From a virus (Duplodnaviria > Caudoviricetes): a stretch of 58,052 nt of DNA. Of the stretch, positions 2,923 to 20,799 are shown piece after piece (position 1 is the first letter of the stretch; each line of letters opens with the position of its first letter). The translations under genes and the position numbers were made by a program. The notes beneath the pieces are model-generated. The model was given only the letters and a program-made list of their open reading frames with translations. It made no database searches and was not told the origin of the DNA. The DNA lies in the IMG/VR virus record IMGVR_UViG_3300036770_003243, positions 1-58,052 of that record; one strand, given 5' to 3'.

Positions 2923-4539
2923 GTGACTCCTGCGCAGGCCGAGCGCGCATTTGCCCGCCTGAGGGCCGCTGTTGCCGCACGCTACCCTGCGGCGCAGGAT
3001 GTCACGTTGCGCCTGCACAAGCGGCACTTCCTGCGCTCTCCCAAGGCACGGGATCTGGCTTGGTACGACCCCACCGACCGCACGGTGAACTTGCTGCACT
3101 CGGCCCTGCGTGGCCCTGCGGGGCGGGTGGAGGGCCTGATCGCCCATGAGCTTGGGCATGCTGCCGATCCCGTGCCAGAGGCCAACTACGCCGAGCGCAG
3201 GGCCGATGCGATGGCCAAGAAGGCGCTGGGAGTCCCCGTCCGGTATGACAAGGACGACGTCCAGAACCTGCGGCAAGGCAGGACACCACGGCCAGCACGG
3301 CTGCCTGAGAACCGCCCAAGAGGAGCTGCCATGAAGCGCAACCCGACCTCCCCCAAGACCGCCCGCAAGCCTGACCCGTGGCTGGTGCGAATCGCAACGG
3401 AAGTGCTCCAATTCCCAACGCTTGAGACTCGCGGGCGGGACTCCCTCGACTTCAAAGAAGTCGCCGTCTGGAATGTAAAACAGGCGCTCGACGGTGCCTA
3501 CCGTCGCGGGTTTGTCAAAGGTGGGGGGATGCTCTCAGGCCCATCTATCCACACCTTCACCGACCCCGTCGCCGTTGCCGCGATTGCGAAGAAGTTCTTC
3601 AACTTCCCCACGCTTGAGACTCACCGAGTGGGAGACCTCGACTTCAAAGAGGTTGCCGTGTGGAACGTCATGCCTGCGCTGGAGGATGCGCATCGTGCGG
3701 GATTCGCAGCCGCCAGAGGCAAGAAGCGCAACCCCACTGCTGCGTACCACCGCACACGCGGGGACGCCAAGCTGGTTCTGGCCGAAGACTCCCTGCGTAC
3801 GGCGAAGGTGCTGCGGCGCAAGGGGGACGCCAGTGGGAGCCACGATGCACTGATACATGCCCACCGCATGGCGGCGCTTGCCGAGTCCGACTTGCTGGAC
3901 GGATCAAGCCCGAAGGCTGCAAAAGCCAAGCAGCTCGCATGGTGGAAGGCATACAGCGCTCTGGCGGCGGACAAGAAGCGCAACCCCAGCAAGGCTGCCA
4001 AGCTCGCCTCGCTGGATCGGCGCATCAAGGCTGCGGAGGAGGCGGGCATCCCCCCGCACTACCTGATGGAGCAGCGCGACCTGCTGGCCAAGAAGGCCAA
4101 GCGAAACCCCGCAGGCAAGGCAAGCCCGCTCAAGGGCACCCGGCTTCCAGAGGCCCATGCGCGGCACGTTGCCGAGGGGCTGCTGGGGCGCATGCACGCA
4201 GACGGGGCCGACACCTTCGCCAAGAAGGTCAAGTGGGTCAAGAAGCACATGCCGCAGATCGATCGCCCCCGCACCTTTGTCGGCTGGGTGACCAAGGGCG
4301 AGCGTGGGCGCGTGGTGCGCAACCCCACCTCTGGCTACGAGGCCAAGCTCAAGGAGGCTGGCGACAACCGCGCCAAGCTGTACCGCTCGCTGGCTGGCAA
4401 GACCAAGGAGCAGCTACTGGCCATGCTGGGCACCTACTATCGATTGCACTCAATGTCGACCAAGAGCAGCAAGACGGATCTCAAGTACGCCATCACCAGC
4501 GCGGCCTACCCCGACCCGCGCCCACCCCGTTCTCGCTAG
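2923..4539 (+). CDS. Zincin-like metallopeptidase domain fused to a basic RNP-repeat modular protein
   Basis: HELGH..ERRADAMA motif; five RNP motifs; two copies of TLET..D.LDFKEVAVWNV..AL (resembles DUF6900); GTG start after GGGGGA; internal AGGAG-ATG at 3331. Confidence 0.7.
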   Translation: MTPAQAERAFARLRAAVAARYPAAQDVTLRLHKRHFLRSPKARDLAWYDPTDRTVNLLHSALRGPAGRVEGLIAHELGHAADPVPEANYAERRADAMAKKALGVPVRYDKDDVQNLRQGRTPRPARLPENRPRGAAMKRNPTSPKTARKPDPWLVRIATEVLQFPTLETRGRDSLDFKEVAVWNVKQALDGAYRRGFVKGGGMLSGPSIHTFTDPVAVAAIAKKFFNFPTLETHRVGDLDFKEVAVWNVMPALEDAHRAGFAAARGKKRNPTAAYHRTRGDAKLVLAEDSLRTAKVLRRKGDASGSHDALIHAHRMAALAESDLLDGSSPKAAKAKQLAWWKAYSALAADKKRNPSKAAKLASLDRRIKAAEEAGIPPHYLMEQRDLLAKKAKRNPAGKASPLKGTRLPEAHARHVAEGLLGRMHADGADTFAKKVKWVKKHMPQIDRPRTFVGWVTKGERGRVVRNPTSGYEAKLKEAGDNRAKLYRSLAGKTKEQLLAMLGTYYRLHSMSTKSSKTDLKYAITSAAYPDPRPPRSR

Positions 4540-4595
4540 ACGACAATCAGCATTTGCAATAAATTTAGGGAGGGGCGATCCCCTTGGAGATAACC

Positions 4596-5366
4596 ATGCA
4601 CCTGACTGAGCAAGACAAGAAGGCGGCCAAGGATGGCTTCAAGTACGTGGTCGTCCGTGGCGGCAAGCGCGTCGCCTACACCACCACCGTGGCCGAGGGC
4701 AAGCGTGAGTGCGGCAAGACCGGTCGGGTCGTATCGATCGCTGGCATGACCTACGCTGCGCAGAACCCCGCCGCCAAGGCCAAGCGCCGCAACCCAGCGA
4801 CCTTCGGTGACCTGTCGATCGGTCAGGAGTTCGACTTTGTGTCGGGCACTTCCTATGACTCGTTCTACGATCGCTGCGTCAAGACTGGTGCGCGAACCTA
4901 CAAGCCAATCGAGGGGAAGCTGAAGGGCCATTCTCTGAAGGTCGGCAGCATCAAGGCTAAAGTCTATCATGTCGGCGGCGTGCGCAACCCCACATCGCGG
5001 ACGGAGGTACTGGCCAAGCAGTGGTACTACCTGACGGACGGCAATGCGCTCGTCCCTGTGGCACGCACCACCCACTTGCAGGCACTCAAGAAGGCCAGAG
5101 ACCTCGTCGAGAAGGACGTTGAGCTTCGGGGGATGCGCCTTGTGTCCGCGACGCAAGTCGCCAAGGACAAGACCCGCAACCCCAGCAGAGGTGCTGCCGA
5201 GGGTTCGGTAGAGAAGTTCATCAACGCCTCTGGCCAGACTGGCTGGCTGGTCTACGACCGCCACGGTCGCCGCGTTGGCTTCTATGCGAACAAGGCGCTC
5301 GCGCTTGAGGTGCTTGCCTCTGCCAACAGCAAGCGCCGCAACCCCGCCAAGCGGAGGCGTGCATGA
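4596..5366 (+). CDS. Basic RNP-repeat modular protein (putative core/DNA-binding)
   Basis: K/R-rich; four RNP motifs; SD GGAG. Confidence 0.7.
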   Translation: MHLTEQDKKAAKDGFKYVVVRGGKRVAYTTTVAEGKRECGKTGRVVSIAGMTYAAQNPAAKAKRRNPATFGDLSIGQEFDFVSGTSYDSFYDRCVKTGARTYKPIEGKLKGHSLKVGSIKAKVYHVGGVRNPTSRTEVLAKQWYYLTDGNALVPVARTTHLQALKKARDLVEKDVELRGMRLVSATQVAKDKTRNPSRGAAEGSVEKFINASGQTGWLVYDRHGRRVGFYANKALALEVLASANSKRRNPAKRRRA

Positions 5367-8919: not shown

Positions 8920-9542
8920 AAGTCCTGATCTACGGCCACAGCCAAGCCCAGCCCACCGGCATGGGCGACGACATGGTCAAGGCTCTGGGCAAGCTCAAGG
9001 TCGGCGTCAAGCGTGTGGGCATACAAGGCAAGAACGACGGCCAGCTGCTCAAGCTCCTGCCCGACCGTGTGGGGGACATCAGCGGCTACGACAAGGTGCT
9101 GCTCTACGGGTACGGCAACGATTCGACCAAGGAGCAGACCCAGAAGCTGGTGCAGTACTTGGGGCCGCAGCGCACGATCCTGATCATCCCGCCGATCAAC
9201 CTTGACCGCGTTGTCGAGGGGACTACCCCAGAGGCGCGGCTTGAGCGGCAGAAGCAGCGCGTGGTTGAACTCAAGGCACTGCTGGGCATCCCGGTCTACG
9301 GCATCTGGGGCTACAAGAAGGACTTCAAGAGCGACATCATCCACATGCGCCCGGGATCGCAGGCTGGGGCGGCGCTTGTGCCCTACCTGCTGGCCGAGCT
9401 TGGCTTGCAGACGCCCCCTCCAGACGTGCAAGAGGGATCGGCCTTGGGATCCGTCCTGCTTGTAGCTGGCGCGGCGCTGGTGGGCTTCATGCTTGCCCGC
9501 CGCAACCGCGCCCGCCCTCCATTGGCAAGGATGCGCGACTAG
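8916..9542 (+). CDS. SGNH/GDSL-like hydrolase, tail-anchored
   Basis: VLIYGHSQ, GND and DIIH blocks; C-terminal TM plus Arg tail; ATGA overlap. Confidence 0.65.
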   Translation: MKVLIYGHSQAQPTGMGDDMVKALGKLKVGVKRVGIQGKNDGQLLKLLPDRVGDISGYDKVLLYGYGNDSTKEQTQKLVQYLGPQRTILIIPPINLDRVVEGTTPEARLERQKQRVVELKALLGIPVYGIWGYKKDFKSDIIHMRPGSQAGAALVPYLLAELGLQTPPPDVQEGSALGSVLLVAGAALVGFMLARRNRARPPLARMRD

Positions 9543-9546
9543 CCCG

Positions 9547-9583
9547 AAAGCAAAGCCCCCGCAAGGCGTACCCTGCGGGGGCT
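9547..9583 (-). terminator. Intrinsic terminator between convergent blocks
   Basis: AGCCCCCGCA..TGCGGGGGCT stem (9554-9583) followed on the - strand by TTGCTTT. Confidence 0.6.
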
Positions 9584-9603
9584 GGGGAGTCGATTCGCCC
9601 TGC

Positions 9604-10041
9604 TCAGCTGAAGCGGCATCGCCCCCGGATCACTTCGAGCAGTGTGTCGGTGTCGGCCTCTTCGATGATCTCCATGGCGACGTCGCTATTTCCCTCGATG
9701 TACGACCGCACCAGCTCGTCCTTGTACTCGTCGCCGATGTAGTCAAAGAGGGCCTCGCTATCGAACTCTCCGAGCACCGTGTCCCTGTCGTAGTAGTCGA
9801 GCGCATCGTTGAGGTCTACTTGGTCGAGCACCAAGGGGGTCGGCAGCTCGGCTATGAACTTCCCGATCACTGGGTTGGCGAGATCCAGCTTGTCCTCGCG
9901 GACCATCAAGGTCAGGTTCTCGATCGCCTTGATCGGATCGTCGCTCACCAGCCCGCGCCGGATGATCTCCGACTTGAGCTGCTCGTCGGTCAGGGTTGTC
10001 AGCACCGCGTTGGCAATCGCCGCCATCATGTTCGCGTCCAT
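9604..10041 (-). CDS. Acidic hypothetical early protein
   Basis: SD GGAGG; D/E-rich; has its own promoter. Confidence 0.75.
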   Translation of the reverse strand: MDANMMAAIANAVLTTLTDEQLKSEIIRRGLVSDDPIKAIENLTLMVREDKLDLANPVIGKFIAELPTPLVLDQVDLNDALDYYDRDTVLGEFDSEALFDYIGDEYKDELVRSYIEGNSDVAMEIIEEADTDTLLEVIRGRCRFS

Positions 10042-10093
10042 CTTGTCCTCCTTGTCCTTGTCCGTTGTAGGCCAGCACCGCGCTGGTGAGAAC

Positions 10094-10122
10094 ATCATAG
10101 CAGGTTCTTTATCGCTTGTCAA
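10094..10122 (-). promoter_or_regulatory. sigma70-type promoter P1
   Basis: TTGACA-17-TATGAT with extended -10 TG. Confidence 0.85.
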
Positions 10123-10336
10123 GTCTTAGCTTTGCTTGCAGATATTCGATCGTGCTGTACATCGTACCGCCGCAATTGCACCAGTCGTACCAAGTGGGGC
10201 AATCCTCAGGGGATCCGTGCTCGCCGTTGTAGCACTCGCGCCAGAAGTCGATCTCCTCTTCTGGGGGCATGCACTCTTGGCACCTCTCTTGGCGGTCTAG
10301 CCATGTGTCGCAGATCCTGCTCGGGTGAGGCGTCAC
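10109..10336 (-). CDS. Small Cys-rich protein
   Basis: GTGA overlap; CxxC and CNCG; its 3' end overlaps P1. Confidence 0.5.
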   Translation of the reverse strand: MTPHPSRICDTWLDRQERCQECMPPEEEIDFWRECYNGEHGSPEDCPTWYDWCNCGGTMYSTIEYLQAKLRLDKR

Positions 10337-10704
10337 GGCGCGGCCTCCTTGCCCTCGTAGGGCGTCCCGCAATGCAGGCACACCGATCGCCCGCTGTCAT
10401 ACGCGACAACCGTACGAGGGTCGGCGCGCTGGTATTCTTCGAACGCATGCCGGGCATCCAGCGCCAGCTCCTGCGCGGCTGGTCCCAGCCGGGCAATCCT
10501 TGCCAGCGCCTGCATGATTGCCGACGCAGCCACCTGCTTGTCCCCGCGCTTGGAGTAGCTCGCGCAGACCTTGTGCTGCTCCGCCCACGTCTGCACATGG
10601 ATGGAGAAGTCCTTGGCGCTCAGGGGCAGCTTGATTGGCTCGCGTTTGCCGCAGGCTTTGCACCACATATCGCTGCCCTGCACCACCACATGATCCGTGT
10701 TCAT
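10333..10704 (-). CDS. Cys-rich hypothetical protein
   Basis: CKAC, HKVC, CLHC; ATGA coupling. Confidence 0.65.
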   Translation of the reverse strand: MNTDHVVVQGSDMWCKACGKREPIKLPLSAKDFSIHVQTWAEQHKVCASYSKRGDKQVAASAIMQALARIARLGPAAQELALDARHAFEEYQRADPRTVVAYDSGRSVCLHCGTPYEGKEAAP

Positions 10705-10934
10705 GCCCCCACCTCCTCGATCAGGTACTTGAGCGTCGCACTGGCATCCAGCAGCGCACGCAGCTTGTCTTGCCCGTGTCCGATCAGCAATGCGCCGTGG
10801 CGCAAGCGTGTCGTGCCGTCGAGGTAGTGGATCTTCTCCCCCATCAGCACTACCCATCGCTCCGACGACCCGCAGCAGTCGCACTCGAACGGCTCCAAGT
10901 CGTCGCGGACGACCTCAATCGCAAGTCCTTTCAT
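10701..10934 (-). CDS. Small Cys-containing protein
   Basis: SD GGAGG; CDCCG; ATGA coupling. Confidence 0.6.
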   Translation of the reverse strand: MKGLAIEVVRDDLEPFECDCCGSSERWVVLMGEKIHYLDGTTRLRHGALLIGHGQDKLRALLDASATLKYLIEEVGA

Positions 10935-11176
10935 TTGGCCTCCTTGCGTCTTGCCTTGCAGGCTGGGCACCAGTCCAGCCTCACGCCGTCTTTGTGCCAT
11001 ACGCTCCACCCCGGCGCGGGCTTGCGGTCGAGGAACCACGCCGCAGGTGCGCCGATGCCTCGCTGGCTGTACACCGTCCGTCGCAAGCCGCAGCCGTCGC
11101 AGACGATGCACGGCTCGGTCGGTTCCACGCGCAGGATAGCAGCCATTCTTCCAGCGATACCTGCCCGATAACTCAT
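10931..11176 (-). CDS. Small zinc-finger-like protein
   Basis: CDGC..GW..DWCPAC. Confidence 0.65.
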   Translation of the reverse strand: MSYRAGIAGRMAAILRVEPTEPCIVCDGCGLRRTVYSQRGIGAPAAWFLDRKPAPGWSVWHKDGVRLDWCPACKARRKEAK

Positions 11177-11619
11177 GGCTCGGCCTCCAGCCCCGCCACG
11201 CGGCGGGCTTCCTTGCGTCTGGCATTGAGAGCTGCCGTCCCGCAGTCGCACGGGCCTCCGTCCCACATTGGCGCGCAGCCACTGTTGTGTGTGGCCTCCG
11301 GCCACGCAGCGATGGCGGCACTCAGCTCAGCGATCTTCTCGTCTCGCGGGTCTGGCTTGGGCACTTGGCCGTCATGGCAGTAGTCGCACCAGTGGTCGTA
11401 GACCTCCGCGCCCATGTGGTAGACGCGGCAACCGTAGTCCGTGTCGCGGCAGCACTTGCCCTTGCACTCAGGGCAGGCGTTCGCCCGGAATGCGCAGTCC
11501 TCGTTCCACTTGTCCATCCACCACTTCTGCACCACCAGCATCGGTGCCACCGCGAGCTTTTGCTCGATCGCCCACCGTTCGCAGTCGGGTGCCTTGCACT
11601 TGGGGCAGTGTTCGGTCAT
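11173..11619 (-). CDS. Cys-rich multi-zinc-finger-like protein
   Basis: Several CxxC; WP..H..C..PCDCG module. Confidence 0.7.
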   Translation of the reverse strand: MTEHCPKCKAPDCERWAIEQKLAVAPMLVVQKWWMDKWNEDCAFRANACPECKGKCCRDTDYGCRVYHMGAEVYDHWCDYCHDGQVPKPDPRDEKIAELSAAIAAWPEATHNSGCAPMWDGGPCDCGTAALNARRKEARRVAGLEAEP

Positions 11620-11861
11620 GGCTCCTCCTTGCCGCAGGGCGTCCCGCATACATGCTCGCTCTCGCACTTGTTGCACCAGTGCTCCCAGCCGCAGTCGCAG
11701 TCACCATCAGCCAGCCCGACAAGCCGCCGTGCGGCCTCTCGCGCCTCCTTGACCTCAGCGTGACCGCAGTCGCACGGGCAGTCGGCGCGGATATTGCACC
11801 ACTGGTCATGGATCGACGCGGGCCAAGTCTCAAGGGCTTTCCTCAGTTCTGGATCGGTCAT
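11616..11861 (-). CDS. Cys-rich protein sharing the PCDCG module
   Basis: WPASIHDQWC..PCDCG..ARRLVGL. Confidence 0.7.
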   Translation of the reverse strand: MTDPELRKALETWPASIHDQWCNIRADCPCDCGHAEVKEAREAARRLVGLADGDCDCGWEHWCNKCESEHVCGTPCGKEEP

Positions 11862-12064
11862 GGCTTCACCTCCCGCACCCAGTAGCCCAGATGCTCCAGC
11901 GCGGCGACCAGCGCCTCGCGGTCGTCCTCAAGCTGCTTCTGGCGATTAGGCAGGTTGAGTCGCTCGGCCTCTGCGATCAGCTTGTCCGACGCCTCAACGC
12001 CCGCGTACAAGTTCGACGCCACCCACTCTTGGCGAACCTTGGCGATCTCACTCCAGTGCTTCAT
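11858..12064 (-). CDS. Hypothetical protein
   Basis: SD GGAGGAG; ATGA coupling. Confidence 0.6.
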   Translation of the reverse strand: MKHWSEIAKVRQEWVASNLYAGVEASDKLIAEAERLNLPNRQKQLEDDREALVAALEHLGYWVREVKP

Positions 12065-12426
12065 GACTCCTCCGTGTTGTGATGGTAGCCTTGCCGCAGC
12101 CACTGCCCGAACGTCAGCCCGTGGGCGTCCCGCGTGTCCATCCACTTGCGGTATCGCCGTGCTGCCGCTGTTTTTGACGGCGCAGGCGGGGCCTGCTTGA
12201 TTGCCTGCCTCCGGCCTTCGTCAGTCACGCGGTACATCGTCCAGCCACCGCTGCACAGGTACGGCTCCACCAGCCCCGCATCGGCAAGCGACTGCACGTC
12301 AGGCATGGCATCTGGACCGGGGTCGTAGTGGTTGCGATACTCGGTCTTTCCGATCAGCCGTCCGTAGTCGTCCCGACCCAGCGCATGACATAGGATGTGG
12401 ATCTGTCCGCTGCTCAATGTGATCAC
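12061..12426 (-). CDS. Possible winged-helix-like protein
   Basis: HALG..YRNHY..L...GLV..YRVT.EG pattern. Confidence 0.55.
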   Translation of the reverse strand: MITLSSGQIHILCHALGRDDYGRLIGKTEYRNHYDPGPDAMPDVQSLADAGLVEPYLCSGGWTMYRVTDEGRRQAIKQAPPAPSKTAAARRYRKWMDTRDAHGLTFGQWLRQGYHHNTEES

Positions 12427-12647
12427 GGCACCCCCCTCGGCGGTACGCACCGCCAGTCGCCCCACTCGCGCCACTCGCGGCACTCCAGCTGCTGCTTGCA
12501 CTTGCCGTTGGGCAGGCAGGAGTGGTGCAGCGTTCCTGCCTGATCCCCCCCTTGCCAGATGGCCCAGAGCAGCACCAGCAGGATTGCGGCACACACGCCC
12601 AAGAACACGGCCAAGTCGCCGCCGTCCCAGCGCAGGCCCCCGGTCAT
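12423..12647 (-). CDS. Small membrane protein with a four-Cys domain
   Basis: N-terminal TM followed by C-x5-C-x5-C-x10-C. Confidence 0.6.
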   Translation of the reverse strand: MTGGLRWDGGDLAVFLGVCAAILLVLLWAIWQGGDQAGTLHHSCLPNGKCKQQLECREWREWGDWRCVPPRGVP

Positions 12648-12934
12648 GGCTCCTCCTTGCCGTAGTGCTCGTCGTCCATCAGATCCTCGACCCTCGAATG
12701 GATCCGATCCAGATCCCGCCGCAAGCGCAAGACGGCGTCCTTGACGCCCTCAAGGTCGCGGGGGATGTCCAACCCGTCCTCGCCCGCTTGCGGGGCTTGT
12801 GCGCGGGCCTGTGCGATGCGCCTGCCCACCTCCTTGGCGTACTCGGTGCGCCACTTGGCAGCCCCCAGCGTCCAGCCCACATACCCCGCTGCCGTGACAG
12901 ACAACGACATCCAGAACGCGACGTCCCAATACAT
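12644..12934 (-). CDS. Membrane-anchored coiled-coil protein
   Basis: N-terminal hydrophobic segment; heptad-like C terminus. Confidence 0.6.
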   Translation of the reverse strand: MYWDVAFWMSLSVTAAGYVGWTLGAAKWRTEYAKEVGRRIAQARAQAPQAGEDGLDIPRDLEGVKDAVLRLRRDLDRIHSRVEDLMDDEHYGKEEP

Positions 12935-12935
12935 C

Positions 12936-13805
12936 TCACACCCCCAATGCGGACTTGATCCGCTCCAGTTGCGACTTGAGCGCATCGCGCTCGGTTTCCA
13001 GCTCCCGCACCTTTGCCTCCAGCACCCCCGTCCGCGCCGCGACAAGGGCCTCGGCGGCGCGAATCAAGCCGTCCAGCGCGACATCCACAACGGCGGGTGC
13101 GGGGGGTTCAATGACCAGCGGGACAGTGACCGCTGGGTCAGTAACGATCTGGCTGTCCGTCTTGGCCTTGATCAGATTCCTGCTCTCGGCGATCCGTTCG
13201 ATCTCGGCGACCTCGTCCATCGTCCAGACCCGGACGTTGAGCTTGCGGTGGAACCGCTTGCCTGCCCGGTCGACGGGCACGAGGCGGTCGTCGCGCATCT
13301 CGGGGCGCTTGACCACCGCATCGGCCAGCTGGTTGAACGTCGCGCAGTTCATCGGCAGGAGCTGGCGGATCTGCGACCAGTCCAGCCACAAGGGGTGCTG
13401 CGCTACGCTCTCTACGCTCAAGTCGTCGTGGTTGACCTCCAGCACCGCTGGCGCGACCGCCGCTGGTGCGTGGGCTTGTGCCGTGTCCATGTCCTTGTCC
13501 TCCTTGGGCGTGTAGCCCATCCTCTCCAGCCAGAGCACCGTCCGGTTGAGGTGCTTGCTCACGACCTCGCACCGCACCCCAGCCCGCCACGCCAGCGACT
13601 TTGCCCGCTCGCTCACCATGTGGCTGCACGTGCCGCTGACCACCAGTACGACTTCGACTCCCTTGGGCAGCACGTCTGGCATGCCCTTGTAGCCATCGTC
13701 GGCGCAGCATGTGTAGGCGACGTCTATCCCCATGCGGTTGCGCAGGGCCTTGGCCCAGTTCCCGCGCATCTGGGCGTTGTAGCCGCCAAAGACCATCGCC
13801 CTCAT
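12936..13805 (-). CDS. DUF2325-like domain protein with coiled-coil C terminus
   Basis: VFGG..VVLVVSGTCSH..AK..A...G motif recalled from DUF2325. Confidence 0.55.
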   Translation of the reverse strand: MRAMVFGGYNAQMRGNWAKALRNRMGIDVAYTCCADDGYKGMPDVLPKGVEVVLVVSGTCSHMVSERAKSLAWRAGVRCEVVSKHLNRTVLWLERMGYTPKEDKDMDTAQAHAPAAVAPAVLEVNHDDLSVESVAQHPLWLDWSQIRQLLPMNCATFNQLADAVVKRPEMRDDRLVPVDRAGKRFHRKLNVRVWTMDEVAEIERIAESRNLIKAKTDSQIVTDPAVTVPLVIEPPAPAVVDVALDGLIRAAEALVAARTGVLEAKVRELETERDALKSQLERIKSALGV

Positions 13806-14143
13806 GGGGACTCCCCCACGGCCTTGGCCGTTGCTTCTATGACGGCGGCGCTCTTGGCGATGCTGTGGCGCGCCTCGTCTAGGTCCATCGCCACCTCCCA
13901 GAGCGCCTCCCGCATGGCGTCCTTGAGCGTCACCCCCATCCTGCACTCGCTGATGGACGTCAGCCCGTCCTCGTACATGACATCCACCGTCCACTTTGCG
14001 GGCAATGTGGCGTCGTAAGTGATGGAGACCCGCAAGTTGTCGTCCAGATCGAACTCGGCCACTGCCCCCGCTGCGTAGTAGAGGGCGCTCTTGTAGTGCT
14101 GGGGCAGGAGCGCCTTCAGCTCGTCCATTGGTGCGCCCATCAT
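13802..14143 (-). CDS. Hypothetical protein
   Basis: ATGA-coupled on both sides. Confidence 0.6.
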   Translation of the reverse strand: MMGAPMDELKALLPQHYKSALYYAAGAVAEFDLDDNLRVSITYDATLPAKWTVDVMYEDGLTSISECRMGVTLKDAMREALWEVAMDLDEARHSIAKSAAVIEATAKAVGESP

Positions 14144-14586
14144 GCCGCCCCCTTGAGGATCTCGGCCTTGGCGGCTTCGACCTTGAGGGTCTTGGGGCGG
14201 CGGTCTGGCCCCCGGTCGATGACGACGTCGACGGTGAGGGGCCTGCCCGGCTTGGAGCGGGACAGGGCGGTGACTGTGCCGTGAACGTACTTGCTGCCGT
14301 CCCAGCACCGGACGGCCATGCCGCGAGTGTGGATGTGCGGCGACGCCTTGGATGGCTCCGTTGCCGCCTTGGGCGCGCCCTCCTTCTTGGCCAGCATCGC
14401 CAGCACCGCAGCTTGGCTGTTCAGGCTGGGCGGGTTGCCCCTATCCGCCAGCGGGTTGATGGCGGTCGCCCACGGAGTGGGGTGCGCCACGGGCGCTTGC
14501 GCCTCTTCGGGCTTGTAGAGGGGGTCCAGTACCTTGAGCACTGTGCGGGCCACTTCAACCAGCAGGCTGCGTGTCATTGCGTCCAT
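14140..14586 (-). CDS. Hypothetical protein
   Basis: SD GGAGG. Confidence 0.65.
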   Translation of the reverse strand: MDAMTRSLLVEVARTVLKVLDPLYKPEEAQAPVAHPTPWATAINPLADRGNPPSLNSQAAVLAMLAKKEGAPKAATEPSKASPHIHTRGMAVRCWDGSKYVHGTVTALSRSKPGRPLTVDVVIDRGPDRRPKTLKVEAAKAEILKGAA

Positions 14587-14595
14587 CTTGTCCTC

Positions 14596-14865
14596 CTACA
14601 GGGTGTTCTCGGGAGCCAAGTCTGCCAGAGCCGCGACCATCGTCGGCCCGAAGCCACGGGGGCCGTACGGCTCTCCGTTGCCGTACCTGCGCTCGGCTAC
14701 GAACATGTCGCGGATGCCGAGATTCAACCCGTCCTGCCGCCACGCCTTGACGCCGATAACTGACGGGGATTCCCAGTCTGGCTCCTTCCATGCAAGCAGC
14801 TCGTCGCTTGTGGCTGTGTCGATGTCGTAGTAGCCGTTCTCCGTCACCCACCTGATCGCTTCCAT
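14596..14865 (-). CDS. Hypothetical early protein
   Basis: SD GGAGG; first gene after P2. Confidence 0.65.
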   Translation of the reverse strand: MEAIRWVTENGYYDIDTATSDELLAWKEPDWESPSVIGVKAWRQDGLNLGIRDMFVAERRYGNGEPYGPRGFGPTMVAALADLAPENTL

Positions 14866-14916
14866 CTTGTCCTCCTTGTCCGTGTCCGTGTCCGCCAGCA
14901 CCGCGCTGGCAGGACC

Positions 14917-14945
14917 ATCATAGCTGATCTGTTATTGCTTGTCAA
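14917..14945 (-). promoter_or_regulatory. sigma70-type promoter P2
   Basis: TTGACA-17-TATGAT. Confidence 0.85.
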
Positions 14946-15002
14946 GATACCCTGACGCCCGCCCCTCAAGGCCAAGACGGCCAAGAGGAGCGGGCGCTTG
15001 GG

Positions 15003-15224
15003 CTACTTGTTGGCGTCCTGCATGTCGTACCAAGCCAGCAGGCACAGGTCCGAGCAGAAGGCTTGCAGGCTGTCTTGGTGCACCCTCCCGCACATGTGGC
15101 AATCCCACACCGGGGCGCTTGTCACGGCCAGCCCCAAGGTGGGGGAGAGGTCCACGTGCGGGCGCTGGGGAGCCTCCTGCGCAGGGGATCCGTAGGTGAC
15201 GATCTTGTCATCGGCCATTTCCAT
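15003..15224 (-). CDS. Small zinc-binding protein (FCS-type motif)
   Basis: CHMCG..FCSDLC. Confidence 0.6.
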   Translation of the reverse strand: MEMADDKIVTYGSPAQEAPQRPHVDLSPTLGLAVTSAPVWDCHMCGRVHQDSLQAFCSDLCLLAWYDMQDANK

Positions 15225-15269
15225 CCTGTCCTCCTTGTCCGTGTAGGCCAGCACCAAGCTGGTATGAAC

Positions 15270-15298
15270 AGGATAGCAGGTCTGCTATCGCTTGTCAA
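15270..15298 (-). promoter_or_regulatory. sigma70-type promoter P3 with palindromic operator
   Basis: TTGACA-17-TATCCT; GATAGCAG-gt-CTGCTATC at 15272-15289. Confidence 0.8.
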
Positions 15299-15342
15299 GT
15301 TGCGGGAATGGCGCGGACATCGGGGCAGGTCGGGGCCTGTGG

Positions 15343-15933
15343 TCACGCCAACAGCGGGCGCGTCTCCAGCAGCTGCTCCATCGGGAAGTCCTCAGGGCAG
15401 GTGGTGTTGACGAAGTTCCTGTGGCGGAAGAGCGTGAAGTCGCGCTCCGCCCAGCCCTCGTCCCACCTGTTCCGCACGCCGTCTGGGGCCAGCTTGAGCG
15501 CGATGTTGTAACGCCCCGCCAGCCACTGCACCAGCTGCCTTGTGGCCTCGACCTGCGCGGCGGGCCAAGGCGCTCCCGACAGGTGCGTGACATCTATGGC
15601 CACCAGCCACCTGTTGGCGTTGCCGCCTGTGGCCTGCGCGAACCCGTTGTCGGGGGAGTTGTACTCGTAGATGTTGCCCTTCTGGTCGACCTCGTAGTTC
15701 GTGCTCAGCCCCCGCTTTTCGAGCACGTACTGCGTGGACTTGGCGCTCCCGGTCACCGTATGGTGGATCACGATCCCACGGATCTTGTTGCTGCGCTTGG
15801 GGAACTTCATCGAGTTCTTGCGGAAAGTCATCGGCGGGCGGGGGGCCTTTGAGGACGCAGCCGCGCTTGTGGCGAGGAAGAACACAAGCACCCCCGCCCC
15901 TACGGCCAGCGCAAACTTGAGACGGCGATCCAT
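15343..15933 (-). CDS. N-acetylmuramoyl-L-alanine amidase (Amidase_2-like) with N-terminal signal/anchor
   Basis: IVIHHT, STNYEVD..G.I, HRNF..TTCP motifs. Confidence 0.85.
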   Translation of the reverse strand: MDRRLKFALAVGAGVLVFFLATSAAASSKAPRPPMTFRKNSMKFPKRSNKIRGIVIHHTVTGSAKSTQYVLEKRGLSTNYEVDQKGNIYEYNSPDNGFAQATGGNANRWLVAIDVTHLSGAPWPAAQVEATRQLVQWLAGRYNIALKLAPDGVRNRWDEGWAERDFTLFRHRNFVNTTCPEDFPMEQLLETRPLLA

Positions 15934-15980
15934 GACACCTCCTCGCCCGATCTTGCCAGTTGAGGGCCAAGGCTGGAAGA

Positions 15981-16412
15981 TCAATCCTCTACACAGCACT
16001 CAGGGCAAGTACGGCAGTGGTCGGCCAAGTACTCCACCGACCAGTGCGCCTCCTTGGCGCGGCGCATCACCTTGACCGAGTAGGCCTTGCCGCACTTGCC
16101 ACTGAGCCCACCATACCCGCACTGGTAGGCCGCAAGGGCACGGGCCATGTCGCCCCTGCTCTTGCCCAGCCAGTAGTGCAGCAAGCGCCGCCCCTCGTTG
16201 CGGGCCACGGCGGGGATGTACAGCAGCGAGGGGTCGTTGCGCACGGGACGGCTTGCCCATCGCGGATCGACCTGCCACAGGCCCATGTACGGGCCGCTCT
16301 TTGCCGTGGGGACGCCCCCGCTCTCGGTGTACTCAAGAGCCCACTCGATGCGGGCGGGGAGCGGGGACTGCTGGTGCATGGCCAGCCAGATTGCAAGGTG
16401 AAGCACGTCCAT
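15981..16412 (-). CDS. Lytic transglycosylase (SLT-like)
   Basis: TESGG, GLWQV, ALAAYQCG motifs. Confidence 0.8.
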   Translation of the reverse strand: MDVLHLAIWLAMHQQSPLPARIEWALEYTESGGVPTAKSGPYMGLWQVDPRWASRPVRNDPSLLYIPAVARNEGRRLLHYWLGKSRGDMARALAAYQCGYGGLSGKCGKAYSVKVMRRAKEAHWSVEYLADHCRTCPECCVED

Positions 16413-16781
16413 TCATCCTCCGTAGCCGAGTGCAAGGCACAAGCCCGCCGCGCCACACCAGATGTGCCACACGGTGTGGTGCCGATGGTAGTCGCCCTCA
16501 TGGGCCTCGTAGTACCGTTCGATGGCCAAGAGGACGAACAGGACACCCGACAGGGTGTAGTGCCACTGCACCGACTTGGCCGCGAGCCAGCAGTTGGCAG
16601 CAATGCTCGCCCACGCCAGCGCGTGGTCGATGCGGTGGTACCGACGCTCGCCGTGCCAGTGGTAGGCGAACGCAGCCGCTGCGGAGGCTGCATAGAGCAG
16701 CCCCAGCAGCGACCCGCTCGACAGCAGCACCGCAGCCATCGGGAGCAGGCTCCACGATGACCAGATGCACGCCGCCTGCAT
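16413..16781 (-). CDS. Small multi-TM protein with CREST-like His motifs
   Basis: AYH..DH..HTVWH in hydrophobic helices. Confidence 0.55.
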   Translation of the reverse strand: MQAACIWSSWSLLPMAAVLLSSGSLLGLLYAASAAAAFAYHWHGERRYHRIDHALAWASIAANCWLAAKSVQWHYTLSGVLFVLLAIERYYEAHEGDYHRHHTVWHIWCGAAGLCLALGYGG

Positions 16782-16909
16782 CAGGGACTCACCAGCAGGC
16801 AGGAGACAACGATCACCAGCACGCTGCAAGCCGTGAACACGGCGACGGCCATGGTCTTGCAGGTGTTGGCGATCTTCTCAAGCGCGGGGTCGTGGAATTG
16901 GTACCGCAT
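16781..16909 (-). CDS. Small membrane protein
   Basis: SD GGAGG; one TM. Confidence 0.45.
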   Translation of the reverse strand: MRYQFHDPALEKIANTCKTMAVAVFTACSVLVIVVSCLLVSP

Positions 16910-17304
16910 CACGCCTCCCCGATGGCGCTGTCGCCGTGAAAGCGCCACGTCATGGGCTTGGGATCGCGGCTGTAGGCCGCATTGCCAACCGGGACCAGCG
17001 GGGGGACTTGCACTGGACGGCCTTGGGGATCGGCCATCTGCATCGTGGGGTCCATGATGACCCAGCCGTTGACCCGCCCGTCCTTGCTGCCGACAAGCGA
17101 CTGCGACACCAGAAGCCCCAGCGTGAGCTTGGGCGAGCCGATCATCGTGGGATCCGCCCAAGTGAACTCGACCGCCTCTCCCGGACGGGGCATGCGCACG
17201 GGGGCCTCCCCCTCGATGGCAAACTGCTGCGCGGTGACCCCCTCGGGCTTGCTTGCCGAGCGATCCTTGAGCGCCTTCTCCAGACTCTTGACCTTGCTGC
17301 TCAT
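16909..17304 (-). CDS. Hypothetical protein
   Basis: SD AGGAGAGAGGA; contiguous with neighbours. Confidence 0.6.
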   Translation of the reverse strand: MSSKVKSLEKALKDRSASKPEGVTAQQFAIEGEAPVRMPRPGEAVEFTWADPTMIGSPKLTLGLLVSQSLVGSKDGRVNGWVIMDPTMQMADPQGRPVQVPPLVPVGNAAYSRDPKPMTWRFHGDSAIGEA

Positions 17305-17314
17305 GTCCTCTCCT

Positions 17315-17545
17315 CTACTTGCTGGCCTTGTCCAGCAGTTGATTGACCGTCTGCTGCTTGCGGACGGTCGCATAGTTGTCAGCGGCCCATCCGCCTCCAG
17401 TGAAGTGCGTGGCTGGCAGCGCCGCCCCGCTGAAGTAGACGTCCTGCTGCCCCCCGCACTCGCACAGGGGCATGGGGTCCGACATCTTCTTGCTGATCTC
17501 GCAAACCGTGAAGCATTTGCGGCACTTGACGTCGTATCGCGGCAC
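17315..17545 (-). CDS. FmdB-family zinc ribbon protein
   Basis: MP.Y...CxxC..C.CG..F.G.GW...NY. Confidence 0.8.
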   Translation of the reverse strand: MPRYDVKCRKCFTVCEISKKMSDPMPLCECGGQQDVYFSGAALPATHFTGGGWAADNYATVRKQQTVNQLLDKASK

Positions 17546-17554
17546 TCTTCCCTC

Positions 17555-18529
17555 CTACACCAGCCCCGCTGCCGGGCTGTCCTTGAATAGCTCCTGCTCG
17601 CGGACGTAGCGGTACAGGACTTCGAGCGTCTTGTGGCCCGTCTGCGCTTGGATGCTCTTGATCTGCTTGCCAGCCCTGACGGCACTGGTGACCAGTCCTG
17701 CCCGCAGCGAGTGGCCCGCGAACCGCCCCTCAACGCCCGCCCTTGTCGCACACTTGGCGACGATGTTCGCCAGCTGGCGGTCGGTTATGGCCCACGGGCG
17801 GACGCCCATGCCATCGGGAGTCACGGTGCGGAATACCGGCCCCTCTGTGATTCCCGATGCGGCAATCCATGCGCGGAAGTTGCGGACGGGGCAGGTCTCC
17901 AGACGGGATCCGTAGGGGATGCCAATGGCCCGCCCGCGACCCTCTTGGTCCGTCTTGCTGCGGCGGATTGTCACGCGGAGGCCGTCTGGCACCTCGACTA
18001 CGTCGGCAACCTCAAGCGCAACAATCTCGCTGCGGCGCATGCCCCCGACCCAGCCAAGGGTGAGCAGGCTGCGGTTGCGCAGAGTGCGCAGGCGGTGCTT
18101 GTCCATCGGCTCGGGCAGGAAGTCGACCATCGCCCGCAGGTGGTGCGGCAAGACAGCCTCGACCTGCTCAGGAGCGATGCCGATCTTGCGGCGGATGCCC
18201 TGATAGACCAGCTTCACCGCCCGATCCTCGCGGGGGCTCGGCAAGTTGGCAGTCTCGTATGCCTTGCAGATCGCGCACAAGGCGATGTTCACCGTGCTCG
18301 ACTTGGCCCCGTTGTCGGCCAGCCACGCGAGGTAGATGGCAATCTGGCCTCTTGGGCCATAGGGGTCGAAGTCCCGATCGGCGCAGAACGCCGCCCACTT
18401 GCGCCATGCGCTGGCGTAGGTGACCTTCGTGTTCTTGGCCAGCGCCTCCTCGGCGTAGTTGGCTGCGGATTCAATCTCGGCCAGCGGGGCAAGGATGCCG
18501 TCACTGGTTGCGACAAGCTCAGTCGTCAT
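17555..18529 (-). CDS. Tyrosine recombinase (Cre-like)
   Basis: RRSEI, RSKTDQ, HSLRAG, TGHK..RY catalytic set; N-terminal core-binding domain. Confidence 0.92.
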   Translation of the reverse strand: MTTELVATSDGILAPLAEIESAANYAEEALAKNTKVTYASAWRKWAAFCADRDFDPYGPRGQIAIYLAWLADNGAKSSTVNIALCAICKAYETANLPSPREDRAVKLVYQGIRRKIGIAPEQVEAVLPHHLRAMVDFLPEPMDKHRLRTLRNRSLLTLGWVGGMRRSEIVALEVADVVEVPDGLRVTIRRSKTDQEGRGRAIGIPYGSRLETCPVRNFRAWIAASGITEGPVFRTVTPDGMGVRPWAITDRQLANIVAKCATRAGVEGRFAGHSLRAGLVTSAVRAGKQIKSIQAQTGHKTLEVLYRYVREQELFKDSPAAGLV

Positions 18530-18685
18530 TTGGCAGGCTCTCGGGTAAGGGGTTGTGGTCCTTGCCCTTGTCCTTGTTCACTTCCTCATCCATGTCACGG
18601 AGGGCATCAAGCCACTCATCAGGGCATCCCTCAGGCGGGCTGCAACGCCAGCACACTTGGAGGGGGAAACCGCACGGGCAGCGTC

Positions 18686-18928
18686 TCATGCCTCGACCTC
18701 GCTGCCGTCAGGGCGGCGGACCAGCACGTTCAGGAATCCATCGGGGTCGATAAATACGCGGATCTCGACGCCATTGGCATCAAAGCCCCCCAGCAGTCCG
18801 TACATGCACTCGCCAAGGGCAATCCCGACCGCGTCAGGCTGCTCGCCAGAGTTGAGAAGCTTGATCACCGTCACCATCAAGGCGTCGGTCAAGGCGTGGG
18901 GGTACTGGACGTCCTCTCTCTCGATCAT
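18686..18928 (-). CDS. Hypothetical protein
   Basis: SD GGAGGAGG. Confidence 0.55.
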   Translation of the reverse strand: MIEREDVQYPHALTDALMVTVIKLLNSGEQPDAVGIALGECMYGLLGGFDANGVEIRVFIDPDGFLNVLVRRPDGSEVEA

Positions 18929-19439: not shown

Positions 19440-19442
19440 TGC

Positions 19443-20767: not shown

Positions 20768-20799
20768 CGCTACCCTGCGGATCAAGCTAGGAGGGGTCG

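What the first reader, a model, noticed from the sequence alone, without database searches (positions are those of the whole stretch)
3331..5366. RNP-delimited modular core polyproteins, and the same motif as an N-terminal tag on enzymes
Seen: at least 17 RNP tripeptides, usually after K/R/V and before T/S/A. There are 5 in 2923-4539, 4 in 4596-5366, 4 in 52692-53735, 2 (plus ANP/KNP variants) in 47028-47678, and one near the N terminus of both the transglycosylase (MPRRNP) and topo IB (RRRLVRNP). Degenerate forms start the 32633 ORF (MRKRRNG) and precede the GHKL domain (LKRNA). The motif separates small modules, some reused between genes (TA..H..RG..AE.SL..KGD..AES..LDG follows RNP in both 2923 and 52692). 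I do not see it in PolA or the primase. Inference: RNP is a protease site or encapsidation/DNA-binding tag that lets unrelated small domains be strung together and carried in the virion, analogous in logic to adenovirus core-protein or T4 internal-protein processing.
Basis: partly seen in the sequence, partly recalled or inferred. Interest (0 to 1): 0.9.

Follow-up and report, generated by a model that had tools for sequence, protein, structure and literature searches.

The report
Arg-Asn-Pro delimited viral polyproteins
In this uncultivated bacterial virus and its relatives, several proteins are strings of small unrelated modules separated by the same three residues (Arg-Asn-Pro), and this marker travels with a tiny zinc protease that probably cuts the strings apart.

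Summary
RNP is the most over-represented tripeptide in the window's proteome (17 seen, 1.9 expected). The same holds in the one related complete genome (22 vs 1.9).

The signal is at protein level. All 17 CGCAACCC sites are sense and in frame. Their codon choice matches other Arg-Asn and Asn-Pro contexts.

In 20 homologues of the 2923-4539 protein, cutting at xNP gives discrete modules of fixed length in different orders. BLAST similarity breaks fall on N|P (219 of 634 ends within 3 residues, 40 expected).

The N-terminal 128 residues of that protein are a minimal HExxH...ExxxD zinc peptidase with a minigluzincin-like fold. Its wider family has 933 clusters and is mostly stand-alone. Distant fusions again carry RRxNP at the junction with the peptidase (12 of 27, 1.9 expected).

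Polyproteins end in Arg in 28 of 43 cases, so the unit is NP...R.

Best reading (0.55): a cleavage or recognition site of this peptidase, releasing shuffled accessory modules.

No cleavage, virion carriage or DNA binding was tested.

The parts
2923..3306 (+). Domain B: minimal zinc metallopeptidase (residues 1-128 of the 538-aa protein). HELGH at 3145-3159, ExxxD (ERRAD) at 3193-3207.
   Evidence: HExxH and E..D are invariant in alignments A1 and A3. AF2 pLDDT is 80-97 over residues 1-120. VIA-align matches abylysin 4jiu_A (Z 8.6, rmsd 2.6, 94 of 105 aligned) and jannalysin 4jix_B (Z 8.2). Foldseek top hits are PprI/IrrE, selecase and abylysin, with weak E 0.13-0.5. Pfam for the window copy gives only Zn_peptidase_2, E 0.007, below cut-off. 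The G001 copy reaches Peptidase_M48 at 24.2 bits against a cut-off of 20.3.
3307..3345 (+). Tail of B and first junction ENRPRGAAMKRNP. It holds an internal Shine-Dalgarno-like AGAGGAG (3320-3326) 4 nt before ATG 3331.
   Evidence: Sequence read. The SD-like word is spelled with AGA, a codon used for 2% of Arg. E129, N130 and the NP are invariant in 15 homologues. In G001 and in 5 metagenome loci the peptidase ends here as a separate ORF.
3337..3345 (+). RNP site 1 (AMKRNPTSP)
3343..3732 (+). Module with two DUF6900 repeats
   Evidence: Pfam PF21841, E 3.5e-29, two stretches. The model has low confidence here.
3727..3735 (+). RNP site 2 (GKKRNPTAA)
3733..3984 (+). Module C, a three-helix bundle. 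It is shared with 52692-53735 and, in relatives, fused to topo IB.
   Evidence: 13 members of 84-86 aa. VIA-align hits span model residues 271-355, from one RNP to the next, with MIT-like bundles at Z 9-11 (a common fold). Pairwise E 1e-6 to the 52779-52982 module.
3979..3987 (+). RNP site 3 (DKKRNPSKA)
   Evidence: It sits in a 3-residue break between helices 330-353 and 357-373.
3985..4107 (+). Module D (41 aa helical hairpin)
   Evidence: 6 members of 40-50 aa, at different positions in homologues.
4102..4110 (+). RNP site 4 (KAKRNPAGK; the only CGA codon)
   Evidence: It lies in the pLDDT<50 stretch 392-411.
4108..4323 (+). Module A (the FVGWVTKGERGRVV module)
   Evidence: 18 members of 53-75 aa, present in nearly all homologues.
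4318..4326 (+). RNP site 5 (RVVRNPTSG)
   Evidence: It lies in the pLDDT<50 stretch 460-472.
4324..4539 (+). Module F, ending ...PRSR before the stop
   Evidence: 4 members. In P0006 the same module is followed by NP (PRSR|NP).
4596..5366 (+). Second polyprotein (256 aa). RNP at 4788, 4983, 5175 and 5337.
   Evidence: 12 homologues share its first module and then differ in module set.
52692..53735 (+). Third polyprotein (347 aa). RNP at 52773, 52977, 53010 and 53265, plus KNP, ANP and KNP variants.
   Evidence: Its N-terminal Cys-rich leader and last module are conserved in G001 h82 and P0038.
47028..47678 (+). Very basic N-terminal region with five xNP sites (47073, 47142, 47169, 47211, 47238), followed by hydrophobic segments.
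   Evidence: All five xNP positions are kept in the G001 orthologue h3, which is 57.5% identical.
53732..54325 (+). Putative cell-wall enzyme with N-terminal MMPRRNP followed by a membrane helix
   Evidence: No Pfam hit. The gene at the same position in G001 is a PF11860 muramidase (E 7e-41) that begins MKRNP plus a membrane helix.
31855..32631 (-). Topoisomerase IB with a 17-residue basic leader ending RNP (32581-32589), just before the catalytic domain
   Evidence: Pfam PF01028, E 7.7e-17. Leader read. In G001 (h23), P0023 and P0024 the same domain is the last module of RNP-delimited polyproteins, always joined by (R/A)NPY.
45424..46068 (+). Membrane-anchored transglutaminase-like protein, the other candidate protease
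   Evidence: Pfam Transglut_core, E 0.0058, below cut-off. It has a C-terminal hydrophobic anchor. No link to the motif was found.

Best explanation
RNP (more generally [R/K/A/Q]-N-P) is a protein-level delimiter. The polyproteins are chains of independently folding units of the form NP-[module]-R.

The delimiter is the recognition site, and most likely the cleavage site, of the small gluzincin-type zinc peptidase (domain B). Domain B is fused to the front of the 2923-4539 polyprotein. In most relatives it is encoded as a separate ~130-aa protein just upstream.

B would first free itself at its own C-terminal tail. It would then cut the other junctions in cis or in trans, probably between Arg and Asn, which would release the modules.

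Because each unit works alone, recombination within the junctions is tolerated. This explains why related viruses carry the same modules in different orders and sets.

Shown here: enrichment, the protein-level nature of the signal, the coincidence of the motif with module boundaries, intact catalytic residues and fold of B, and the co-occurrence of B with NP junctions.

Inferred: that cleavage happens, that B does it, and the exact scissile bond. Where the products act (virion or host cytoplasm) is unknown.
For: 1. Enrichment. RNP 17 vs 1.88 in the window and 22 vs 1.92 in G001.

2. Protein level. All 17 CGCAACCC are sense and in frame. CGC at RNP is 16/17 and 20/22, but CGC at other Arg-Asn pairs is 28/34 and 29/36 (Fisher p 0.40 and 0.46). 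CCC at RNP is 25/39 against 45/90 at other NP (p 0.18).

3. Boundaries.
- Cutting 23 proteins at xNP gives 143 segments, with 20 recurring families of narrow length range in different orders.
- 219 of 634 internal BLAST HSP ends lie within 3 residues of N|P, against a mean of 39.7 and a maximum of 66 in 1000 randomisations.
- Arg precedes NP in 112 of 147 sites.
- RNP sites 3-5 fall in breaks between confident helices, and module C hits span exactly 271-355.

4. The peptidase.
- HExxH in 154/154 and HExxH...ExxxD in 150/154 family members examined.
- Minigluzincin-like fold.
- Peptidase_M48 above cut-off for the G001 copy.

5. Coupling of B and the motif.
- B is N-terminal in 15 of the 19 homologues and joined by (M)KRNP.
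- It is a separate ORF directly upstream of RNP proteins in G001 and L012, and upstream of an ORF beginning MAKRNP in the distant L016.
- In fusions outside the close clade, NP lies within 40 residues upstream of B in 12 of 27 (1.9 expected, binomial 9e-8, 0 of 5000 random window sets reach 12). It lies within 25 residues downstream in 4 of 4.
- NP elsewhere in those proteins is at background, 15 in 9061 residues.

6. Unit ends.
- 28 of 43 polyproteins end in Arg, against 11 of 166 other genes (6e-23).
- 119 of 132 B proteins end exactly 2 residues after the profile, with last residue R in 55, Q in 36 and K in 9.
- P0062 and P0071 read WLHR|NP at that point.
- N-terminal tags keep the Arg: MKRNP, MRLRNP, MAGRRNP, MMPRRNP.
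Against: - No cleavage product has been observed, so everything is comparative.
- The window's own B copy does not reach any Pfam cut-off.
- Foldseek E-values are weak (0.13-0.5), and Z 8.2-8.6 is only moderate.
- The structure model is poor overall (mean pLDDT 62). It is uninformative around RNP sites 1 and 2, because residues 132-280 are below 50.
- Copies a few residues from a protein's N or C terminus (MKRNP..., ...RNPR) would give trivial products if cut. A docking role would fit those better.
- 108 of 154 family members are stand-alone and their substrates are unknown.
- 15 of 27 distant fusions have no NP near B.
- One RNP (44262-45416, kept in G001 h6) lies inside a conserved region, not at a junction. 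NP without Arg also occurs inside the topo IB domain.
- From recall, not from a call: gluzincins usually prefer a hydrophobic residue after the cut, not Asn.
Confidence: 0.55

Rival explanations
1. RNP is not cut. It is a short docking motif in basic linkers and at termini. It would bind a partner (the B domain as an adaptor, a packaging receptor, the membrane or DNA), so that modules and tagged enzymes are recruited together, for example into the particle.
For: - Terminal copies make sense as handles: MKRNP at N termini, RNPR and RNPAKRRRA at C termini.
- Flanks are basic, with K at -2 in 44 and at -3 in 39 of 147 sites.
- The 47028 protein has five sites in a highly basic region next to hydrophobic segments.
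- All 17 RNP of my gene set lie in the + strand block that also holds the capsid-like and membrane proteins.
- Non-homologous cell-wall enzymes at the same position in two genomes both carry the tag.
Against: - B keeps a complete catalytic motif in 150 of 154 members, which an adaptor would not need.
- Natural C termini fall exactly after the Arg. This is the pattern of a product end.
- In G001 ten RNP lie in the replication block.
- No DNA-binding or packaging partner was identified.
Confidence: 0.2
2. The junctions are cut, but not by B. The agent would be the membrane-anchored transglutaminase-like protein at 45424, a host protease, or spontaneous Asn-Pro self-cleavage (asparagine lyase chemistry). 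B would be just one more cargo module.
For: - 45424-46068 has a weak papain-like (Transglut_core) match and is conserved in G001 at 63.5% identity.
- Asn-Pro self-cleavage exists in nature. The RsgI paper appears in the listing. FlhB/YscU NPTH and reovirus mu1 are recalled, not from a call.
- NPT is itself enriched: 8 vs 1.5 and 9 vs 1.7.
Against: - In distant B fusions the NP sits next to B and is not enriched elsewhere in the same proteins. That points to B itself.
- Known self-cleaving Asn-Pro sites, from recall, sit in a conserved folded context. Here both flanks vary freely and the sites lie in low-confidence loops.
- The Transglut_core hit is below cut-off, at 17.3 against 23 bits.
Confidence: 0.12
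3. The conserved feature is DNA. CGCAACCC and its flanks would be an in-frame recombination linker that lets cassettes be exchanged, and the tripeptide would be a by-product.
For: - The exact 8-mer occurs 17 times in the window and 23 times in G001, against 3 for the reversed control.
- Tandem NPSLNVR heptads at junctions look like unequal crossing-over; SLNVR lies between two NPs 19 times.
- The window's topo IB looks like a deletion between the first and last junction of the G001 form.
Against: - Codon choice at R and P of RNP is no more uniform than at other Arg-Asn and Asn-Pro pairs. CGA and CGG variants occur.
- All sites are in one frame and on the sense strand.
- The Arg is kept at N-terminal tags where no cassette is joined.
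- Distant relatives keep N-P with a different neighbour (RRxNP) next to B.
- Recombination in the linkers probably happens, but as a consequence rather than the cause of conservation.
- DNA of the heptad-bearing contigs could not be fetched.
Confidence: 0.08

Closest known systems
Polyvalent proteins of phages and conjugative elements (Iyer et al. 2017, PMC5512222; passages read)
   Same: These are multi-domain proteins of mobile elements that combine many unrelated small domains. Domain sets evolve quickly. The authors predict processing by zincin-like metallopeptidase domains in the same polypeptide.
   Different: No delimiter motif is described in the passages I read; 'linker' occurs 0 times in the text. 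The typical polyvalent domains (SNF2, methylase, ART, ArdC-N, MuF) are not in these polyproteins, and only DUF6900 is named. Whether B belongs to their MPTase family was not tested. Supplements were not seen.
Minigluzincins (selecase, abylysin/projannalysin-type minimal M48/M56-like scaffolds) and IrrE/PprI
   Same: They share a ~110-130 residue zincin fold and HExxH plus a Glu in ExxxD. The solved abylysin and jannalysin entries are titled zymogens. This fits a tail-in-cleft self-processing idea, which is inference.
   Different: Sequence similarity is at noise level, at 8-20% identity in the structural alignments. No hit came from a profile search of PDB sequences at E<=10. Viral context, fusion to cargo and an NP-type site are not known for them (recalled).
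Virion maturation by a viral protease at a short consensus: adenovirus protease with pVII and Mu, T4 gp21 with internal-protein targeting leaders, ASFV polyproteins (all recalled, no call)
   Same: A short conserved motif recurs at every junction or leader. Basic peptides would be produced from the 47028 protein. N-terminal leaders sit on enzymes.
   Different: Those proteases are cysteine or serine enzymes with other motifs. Virion location and cleavage are proven there and untested here. Free shuffling of modules between relatives is not a feature of those systems.
Asn-Pro self-cleaving proteins (FlhB/YscU NPTH and reovirus mu1, recalled; RsgI, PMC10328401, seen only as listing and abstract start)
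   Same: An Asn-Pro pair, often followed by Thr, at a functional cut.
   Different: Those sites sit inside one conserved fold (recalled). Here the flanks are interchangeable modules and the preceding Arg is the other conserved residue.

Membership tests
Gluzincin / minigluzincin zinc metallopeptidase (domain B) | HExxH zinc-binding and catalytic motif | tested here: met
   HELGH is invariant in A1 and A3. It is present in 154 of 154 family members examined.
Gluzincin / minigluzincin zinc metallopeptidase (domain B) | Third zinc ligand Glu in a downstream ExxxD helix | tested here: met
   E91 and D95 (ERRAD) are invariant. HExxH...ExxxD is present in 150 of 154. Assigning this Glu as the ligand is by analogy (recalled).
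Gluzincin / minigluzincin zinc metallopeptidase (domain B) | Zincin fold similar to solved members | tested here: met
   Abylysin 4jiu_A: Z 8.6, rmsd 2.6, 94 of 105 residues. Jannalysin 4jix_B: Z 8.2. Foldseek probability 0.98-1.00 but E 0.13-0.5. Domain pLDDT is 80-97.
Gluzincin / minigluzincin zinc metallopeptidase (domain B) | Curated family model reached (Pfam) | tested here: inconclusive
   Window copy: Zn_peptidase_2 at 16.3 bits against a cut-off of 27. G001 copy: Peptidase_M48 at 24.2 bits against a cut-off of 20.3, covering only the HExxH region.
Gluzincin / minigluzincin zinc metallopeptidase (domain B) | Proteolytic activity | not testable with these tools
   Needs expression and an assay.
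Polyvalent proteins (Iyer et al. 2017) | Many unrelated domains in one polypeptide of a virus or plasmid | tested here: met
   5-8 modules per protein, with 20 recurring module families.
Polyvalent proteins (Iyer et al. 2017) | Zincin-like metallopeptidase in the same protein | tested here: met
   Domain B is N-terminal in 15 of the 19 homologues. Identity with their MPTase family was not tested.
Polyvalent proteins (Iyer et al. 2017) | Characteristic effector domains (SNF2, methylase, ART, ArdC-N, MuF and others) | tested here: not met
   Pfam scans of 2923-4539 and of 10 homologues found only DUF6900, a weak KOW and weak peptidase hits. SNF2 and methylases are separate genes here.
Polyvalent proteins (Iyer et al. 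2017) | Delivered into the host with the DNA | not testable with these tools
   No virion proteome is available, and the virus is known only from metagenomes.
Viral polyprotein with cognate protease | Same short motif at each junction | tested here: met
Viral polyprotein with cognate protease | Cleavage at the motif | not testable with these tools
   Indirect only: natural C termini end in Arg in 28 of 43.
Asparagine-lyase type Asn-Pro self-cleavage | Scissile Asn-Pro held in a conserved folded context | tested here: not met
   Both flanks vary between homologues. Sites lie in helix breaks or low-pLDDT stretches. That a folded context is required is recalled.
AT-hook DNA-binding motif | Core Arg-Gly-Arg-Pro (recalled) | tested here: not met
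   The core here is Arg-Asn-Pro. Gly precedes NP in only 4 of 147 sites.

The most novel reading that the evidence does not exclude
A previously undescribed processing system of double-stranded DNA bacterial viruses. A family of ~130-residue gluzincins (933 clusters at 50% identity) would cut at Arg|Asn-Pro. Around it, a lineage of probably tail-less, membrane-containing viruses has built freely shuffling 'NP...R' cassettes. These include enzymes such as topoisomerase IB, a Zeta-like kinase and muramidases, and they form self-processing polyproteins. That would make RNP a portable, genetically encoded cut-here signal with its own minimal protease.
Probability: 0.4. Interest if true: 0.85.

Novelty: new variant of a known kind. 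Interest (0 to 1): 0.72.

Why it matters
If the reading holds, it gives the first explicit site-and-protease pair for the predicted but unproven processing of multi-domain proteins of bacterial mobile elements.

It would also define the specificity of a large unannotated family of minimal zinc peptidases.

It would explain how a virus lineage swaps small accessory modules in frame.

A 130-residue protease with a three-residue site could be a useful tool.

The test is simple: express one gene with and without the catalytic Glu.

The polyproteins also mark out about 20 unknown small domains that turn over quickly between relatives. This is the pattern expected of host-takeover or anti-defence factors.

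Tried and rejected
Chance or composition: rejected.

DNA-level constraint beyond coding: not found.

Close relatives:
- Phage GenBank records match only the DUF6900 part.
- IMG/VR holds one true relative (G001) and one provirus with only a B-like domain.
- Bacterial genomes gave nothing for the capsid-like protein.
- The metagenome scan gave 6 short loci.
- Two further attempts found nothing: protein P0034 and a degenerate linker pattern. The heptad linkers could therefore not be examined as DNA.

A profile of A1 against PDB sequences gave no hit at E<=10.

Complex prediction of B (1-128) with residues 335-412 of the polyprotein gave no verdict: score 0.00, controls not run. It counts neither for nor against binding.

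Capsid identity:
- 42 of 87 window proteins were scanned against Pfam and/or PHROGs. None hit a capsid, portal, terminase or packaging ATPase family.
- The model of 47765-48457 is poor (pLDDT 52.7). Its Foldseek list is only weakly enriched in jelly-roll capsids, with best E 6e-3.
- The protein atlas gave only unnamed viral clusters.

Literature: searches for DUF6900 (0 papers), KRNP with cleavage site and phage (no paper with KRNP among those listed) and phage polyprotein/metalloprotease found no description of this motif. That is the basis for 'not in print'. Subscription journals and supplements were not seen.

Full report
**What the window is.** The window is a whole IMG/VR virus record of 58,052 bp with a 127-bp terminal repeat and 63% G+C. 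I called 87 genes with a codon-usage score.
- Named functions: family A DNA polymerase, a primase-helicase, three helicases including an SNF2 type, a PD-(D/E)XK nuclease, two DNA methylases, a tyrosine integrase, topoisomerase IB, a GHKL-type ATPase and endolysin-like proteins.
- Host: the endolysins and a muramidase in the relative point to a bacterial host.
- Structural genes: none of the 42 proteins scanned matched a capsid, portal or terminase family.

- Six-frame translation gives 26 RNP, of which 18 are in the frame of credible genes.
- RNP is the most over-represented of all tripeptides in the proteome, 17 against 1.88 expected, Poisson 2e-11.
- In the three richest genes no shuffle out of 20,000 reached the observed count.
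- The underlying word CGCAACCC occurs 17 times against 3.8 expected. Every copy is on the sense strand and in the R-N-P frame.

**Protein or DNA?** Sixteen of 17 sites use CGC for Arg, although CGC is only 49% of Arg codons. That looked like a DNA constraint. However, Arg followed by Asn but not Pro uses CGC just as often (28/34 in the window, 29/36 in G001; Fisher p 0.40 and 0.46). The Pro codon at RNP does not differ from other Asn-Pro pairs either (25/39 against 45/90, p 0.18). The uniform 8-mer is therefore a codon-pair habit of the genome. I found no constraint beyond the amino acids.

**Relatives.**
- GenBank phages match only the DUF6900 part.
- A search of 5.8 billion proteins found 19 homologues of the 2923-4539 protein, all from metagenomes. 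It found 12 further homologues of 4596-5366.
- IMG/VR holds one complete relative, G001 (58,644 bp, terminal repeat).
- G001 is syntenic, with 42 of 87 window genes matching. RNP is again its top tripeptide, 22 against 1.92.

**RNP marks module boundaries.**
- I cut 23 proteins at every xNP. The 143 pieces fell into 20 recurring families with narrow length ranges, for example 84-86, 72 and 58 residues. These occur in different orders and combinations in different proteins.
- As a test that does not presuppose the motif, I took the ends of all BLASTP alignments among 29 such proteins. Of 634 distinct internal ends, 219 lie within 3 residues of an N|P bond, against 39.7 on average and at most 66 in 1000 randomisations.
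- Arg precedes NP in 112 of 147 sites. K, V or R is common at -2, and A, S, T or R follows the Pro.
- The AlphaFold model of 2923-4539 is poor overall (mean pLDDT 62) and says nothing about sites 1 and 2. Sites 3, 4 and 5 fall in short breaks or dips between confident helices.
- Structural matches to the third module span residues 271-355, exactly from one RNP to the next.
- No predicted domain spans a site.

**The protease.**
- Residues 1-128 of 2923-4539 (domain B) carry HELGH and, 12 residues later, ERRAD. Both are invariant in close and distant relatives.
- The domain is modelled with pLDDT 80-97.
- It aligns with the minimal gluzincins abylysin (Z 8.6, rmsd 2.6, 94 of 105 residues) and jannalysin (Z 8.2).
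- It tops Foldseek with PprI/IrrE, selecase and abylysin, though at weak E-values of 0.13-0.5.
- The G001 copy passes the Pfam Peptidase_M48 cut-off. The window copy passes none.

**The wider B family.**
- A profile of nine B domains found 933 clusters at E<=0.001 among 1.84 billion representatives.
- Of the 154 members I examined, 108 are stand-alone proteins of about 130 residues, 25 have B at the C terminus, 19 at the N terminus (17 of these in the close clade) and 2 in the middle.
- All 154 keep HExxH, and 150 keep HExxH...ExxxD.

**B and the motif travel together.**
- In the close clade B is always first and is joined to the modules by (M)KRNP.
- In G001, L011, L012, L013, L014, L015 and L016 B is a separate ORF.
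- In G001 and L012 the next gene is an RNP polyprotein. In the distant L016 (35% identity) the next ORF begins MAKRNP.
- In fusions outside the close clade an NP, mostly as RRxNP, lies within 40 residues upstream of B in 12 of 27. That compares with 1.9 expected (binomial 9e-8; none of 5000 random window sets reached 12).
- An NP lies within 25 residues downstream of B in 4 of 4.
- Elsewhere in those same proteins NP is at background, 15 in 9061 residues. This argues that B is the partner of the motif rather than one more cargo.

**Where the unit ends.**
- The natural C terminus of 28 of 43 polyproteins is Arg, against 11 of 166 for the other genes of the two genomes (6e-23).
- The same modules end in ...R before a stop in one protein and in ...R-NP in another, for example PRSR and AIAR.
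- B proteins end with striking uniformity: 119 of 132 stop 2 residues after the profile, as LHQ, LHR or LPR. In P0062 and P0071 that point reads WLHR|NP.
- N-terminal tags keep the Arg: MKRNP, MRLRNP, MAGRRNP, MSKYKRNP, MMPRRNP.
- The unit therefore looks like NP-[module]-R. If there is a cut it most likely lies between Arg and Asn. This last step is inference.

**Tags on enzymes.**
- The window's topo IB starts MAGRPLRRLRRRLVRNPY.
- In G001, P0023 and P0024 the same catalytic domain is the last module of a polyprotein and is always entered through (R/A)NPY. G001's form starts MAGRRNP, so the window's gene looks like a deletion between the first and last junctions.
- G001 also has MRLRNP ahead of a Zeta-toxin-like kinase, a GNAT-like module after an RNP, and MKRNP plus a membrane helix ahead of a PF11860 muramidase.
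- The window gene at that position (53732) is not homologous and has no Pfam hit, yet it also begins MMPRRNP plus a membrane helix.

**An internal start.** This looks like a retained ribosome-binding site. A B-less polyprotein may therefore also be made. This is inference.

**Interpretation.**
- Best reading (0.55): RNP is the recognition and probably the cleavage site of B. B frees itself and then the modules. Shuffling is tolerated because each unit works alone.
- Docking motif without cleavage (0.20): it fits the terminal copies better, but not the intact active site or the Arg ends.
- Cleavage by another agent (0.12): the transglutaminase-like 45424 protein, a host enzyme or Asn-Pro self-cleavage. 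The B-specific placement of NP in distant fusions and the variable flanks argue against this.
- A DNA recombination linker as the primary cause (0.08): it lacks codon support. Still, the tandem NPSLNVR heptads (SLNVR between NPs 19 times) suggest that recombination in the linkers does happen.
- Virion carriage is open. All 17 RNP of my gene set lie in the + strand block 44262..9542, which holds the membrane and capsid-like genes. In G001, however, ten lie in the replication block.

**Comparison with what is known.**
- The nearest concept is the polyvalent protein of Iyer et al. 2017. From the passages I read, it predicts processing by zincin-like peptidases but describes no delimiter. Their supplements were not seen.
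- The typical polyvalent effector domains are absent here. I therefore file this as working like that class, not as a tested member.
- Adenovirus and T4 maturation are functional analogies from recall.
- I found no paper on the motif.

**Limits.**
- No experiment was done.
- There is only one related complete genome.
- The module functions are unknown.
- The structure model is weak outside B and three modules.
- The complex prediction gave no verdict.

Noticed in passing
window 44262-58052 and 1-9542 (+ strand): At least 12 proteins of this block end in a hydrophobic helix followed by a few basic residues, a tail-anchor pattern. They are the 952-aa protein, 2483, 5363, 5696, 6273, 7024, 7700, 8347, 8916, 45424 and 51718, plus 47028 with internal segments. 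No tail, portal, terminase or HK97-type capsid family was hit in the 42 proteins scanned. This suggests a tail-less virus with a membrane.
   Followed up: partly
window 47765-48457 / 48486-49271 and 49370-49900 / 49923-50453: These are two pairs of beta-rich paralogues conserved in G001. The model of the first has low confidence (pLDDT 52.7). Its weak Foldseek list is dominated by jelly-roll capsid proteins, including SPV1 and P23-77 VP17. They are possible single jelly-roll capsid proteins of a new lineage.
   Followed up: partly
window 57476-58052 joined to 1-2409: The open frame at the right end continues in frame through the 127-bp terminal repeat into 1-2409. This gives one gene of about 950 residues that matches the 975-aa protein of G001. 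No family was matched.
   Followed up: partly
window 3320-3333: An AGAGGAG word built from rare Arg and Gly codons lies 4 nt before the in-frame ATG 3331, inside the 2923-4539 gene. It may be an internal ribosome-binding site retained from a time when the peptidase was a separate gene.
   Followed up: no
window 6273-6998, 7024-7698, 7700-7894: Three adjacent paralogues begin MMT(C/S/N)ETC(S/G)GS... and end in a membrane anchor. The first carries a run of about 25 Gly.
   Followed up: no
window 44262-45416 and 46148-46906: Both proteins contain long acidic runs (DDDDDDDD; DDGDDGEDGDDDDDDDDDEG). The first also has a long Glu/Arg-rich helical stretch. They may be scaffold-like or DNA-mimic proteins.
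   Followed up: no
window 53265-53540 and 54335-55000: A module of the 52692 polyprotein (ARAYV..I.SIA..AG.SD...KIGKLF.QA) recurs as the C-terminal half of the separate 54335 protein. Where the polyprotein reads LLANPRNRKNP, that protein reads LLAKPRKRKIH and stops. The same module is in P0035 and P0037.
   Followed up: no
proteins P0027-P0034, P0038 (metagenome homologues): Junctions are often tandem heptads, NPSLNVR-NPSLNVR-NP, and several proteins end ...NPSLNVR. G001 h77 has the analogous NPSASMVGFQR-NP three times. Their DNA could not be obtained.
   Followed up: partly
window and G001, genome-wide: There is a strong codon-pair preference. Arg before Asn is CGC in about 82% of cases, against about 49% overall.
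   Followed up: yes
window 29383-31848 (-), 31855-32631 (-), 55041-57467 (+): A bacterial virus that encodes a eukaryote-type topoisomerase IB, an 821-aa GHKL-type ATPase and an SNF2 helicase is an unusual replication and DNA-handling set.
   Followed up: no
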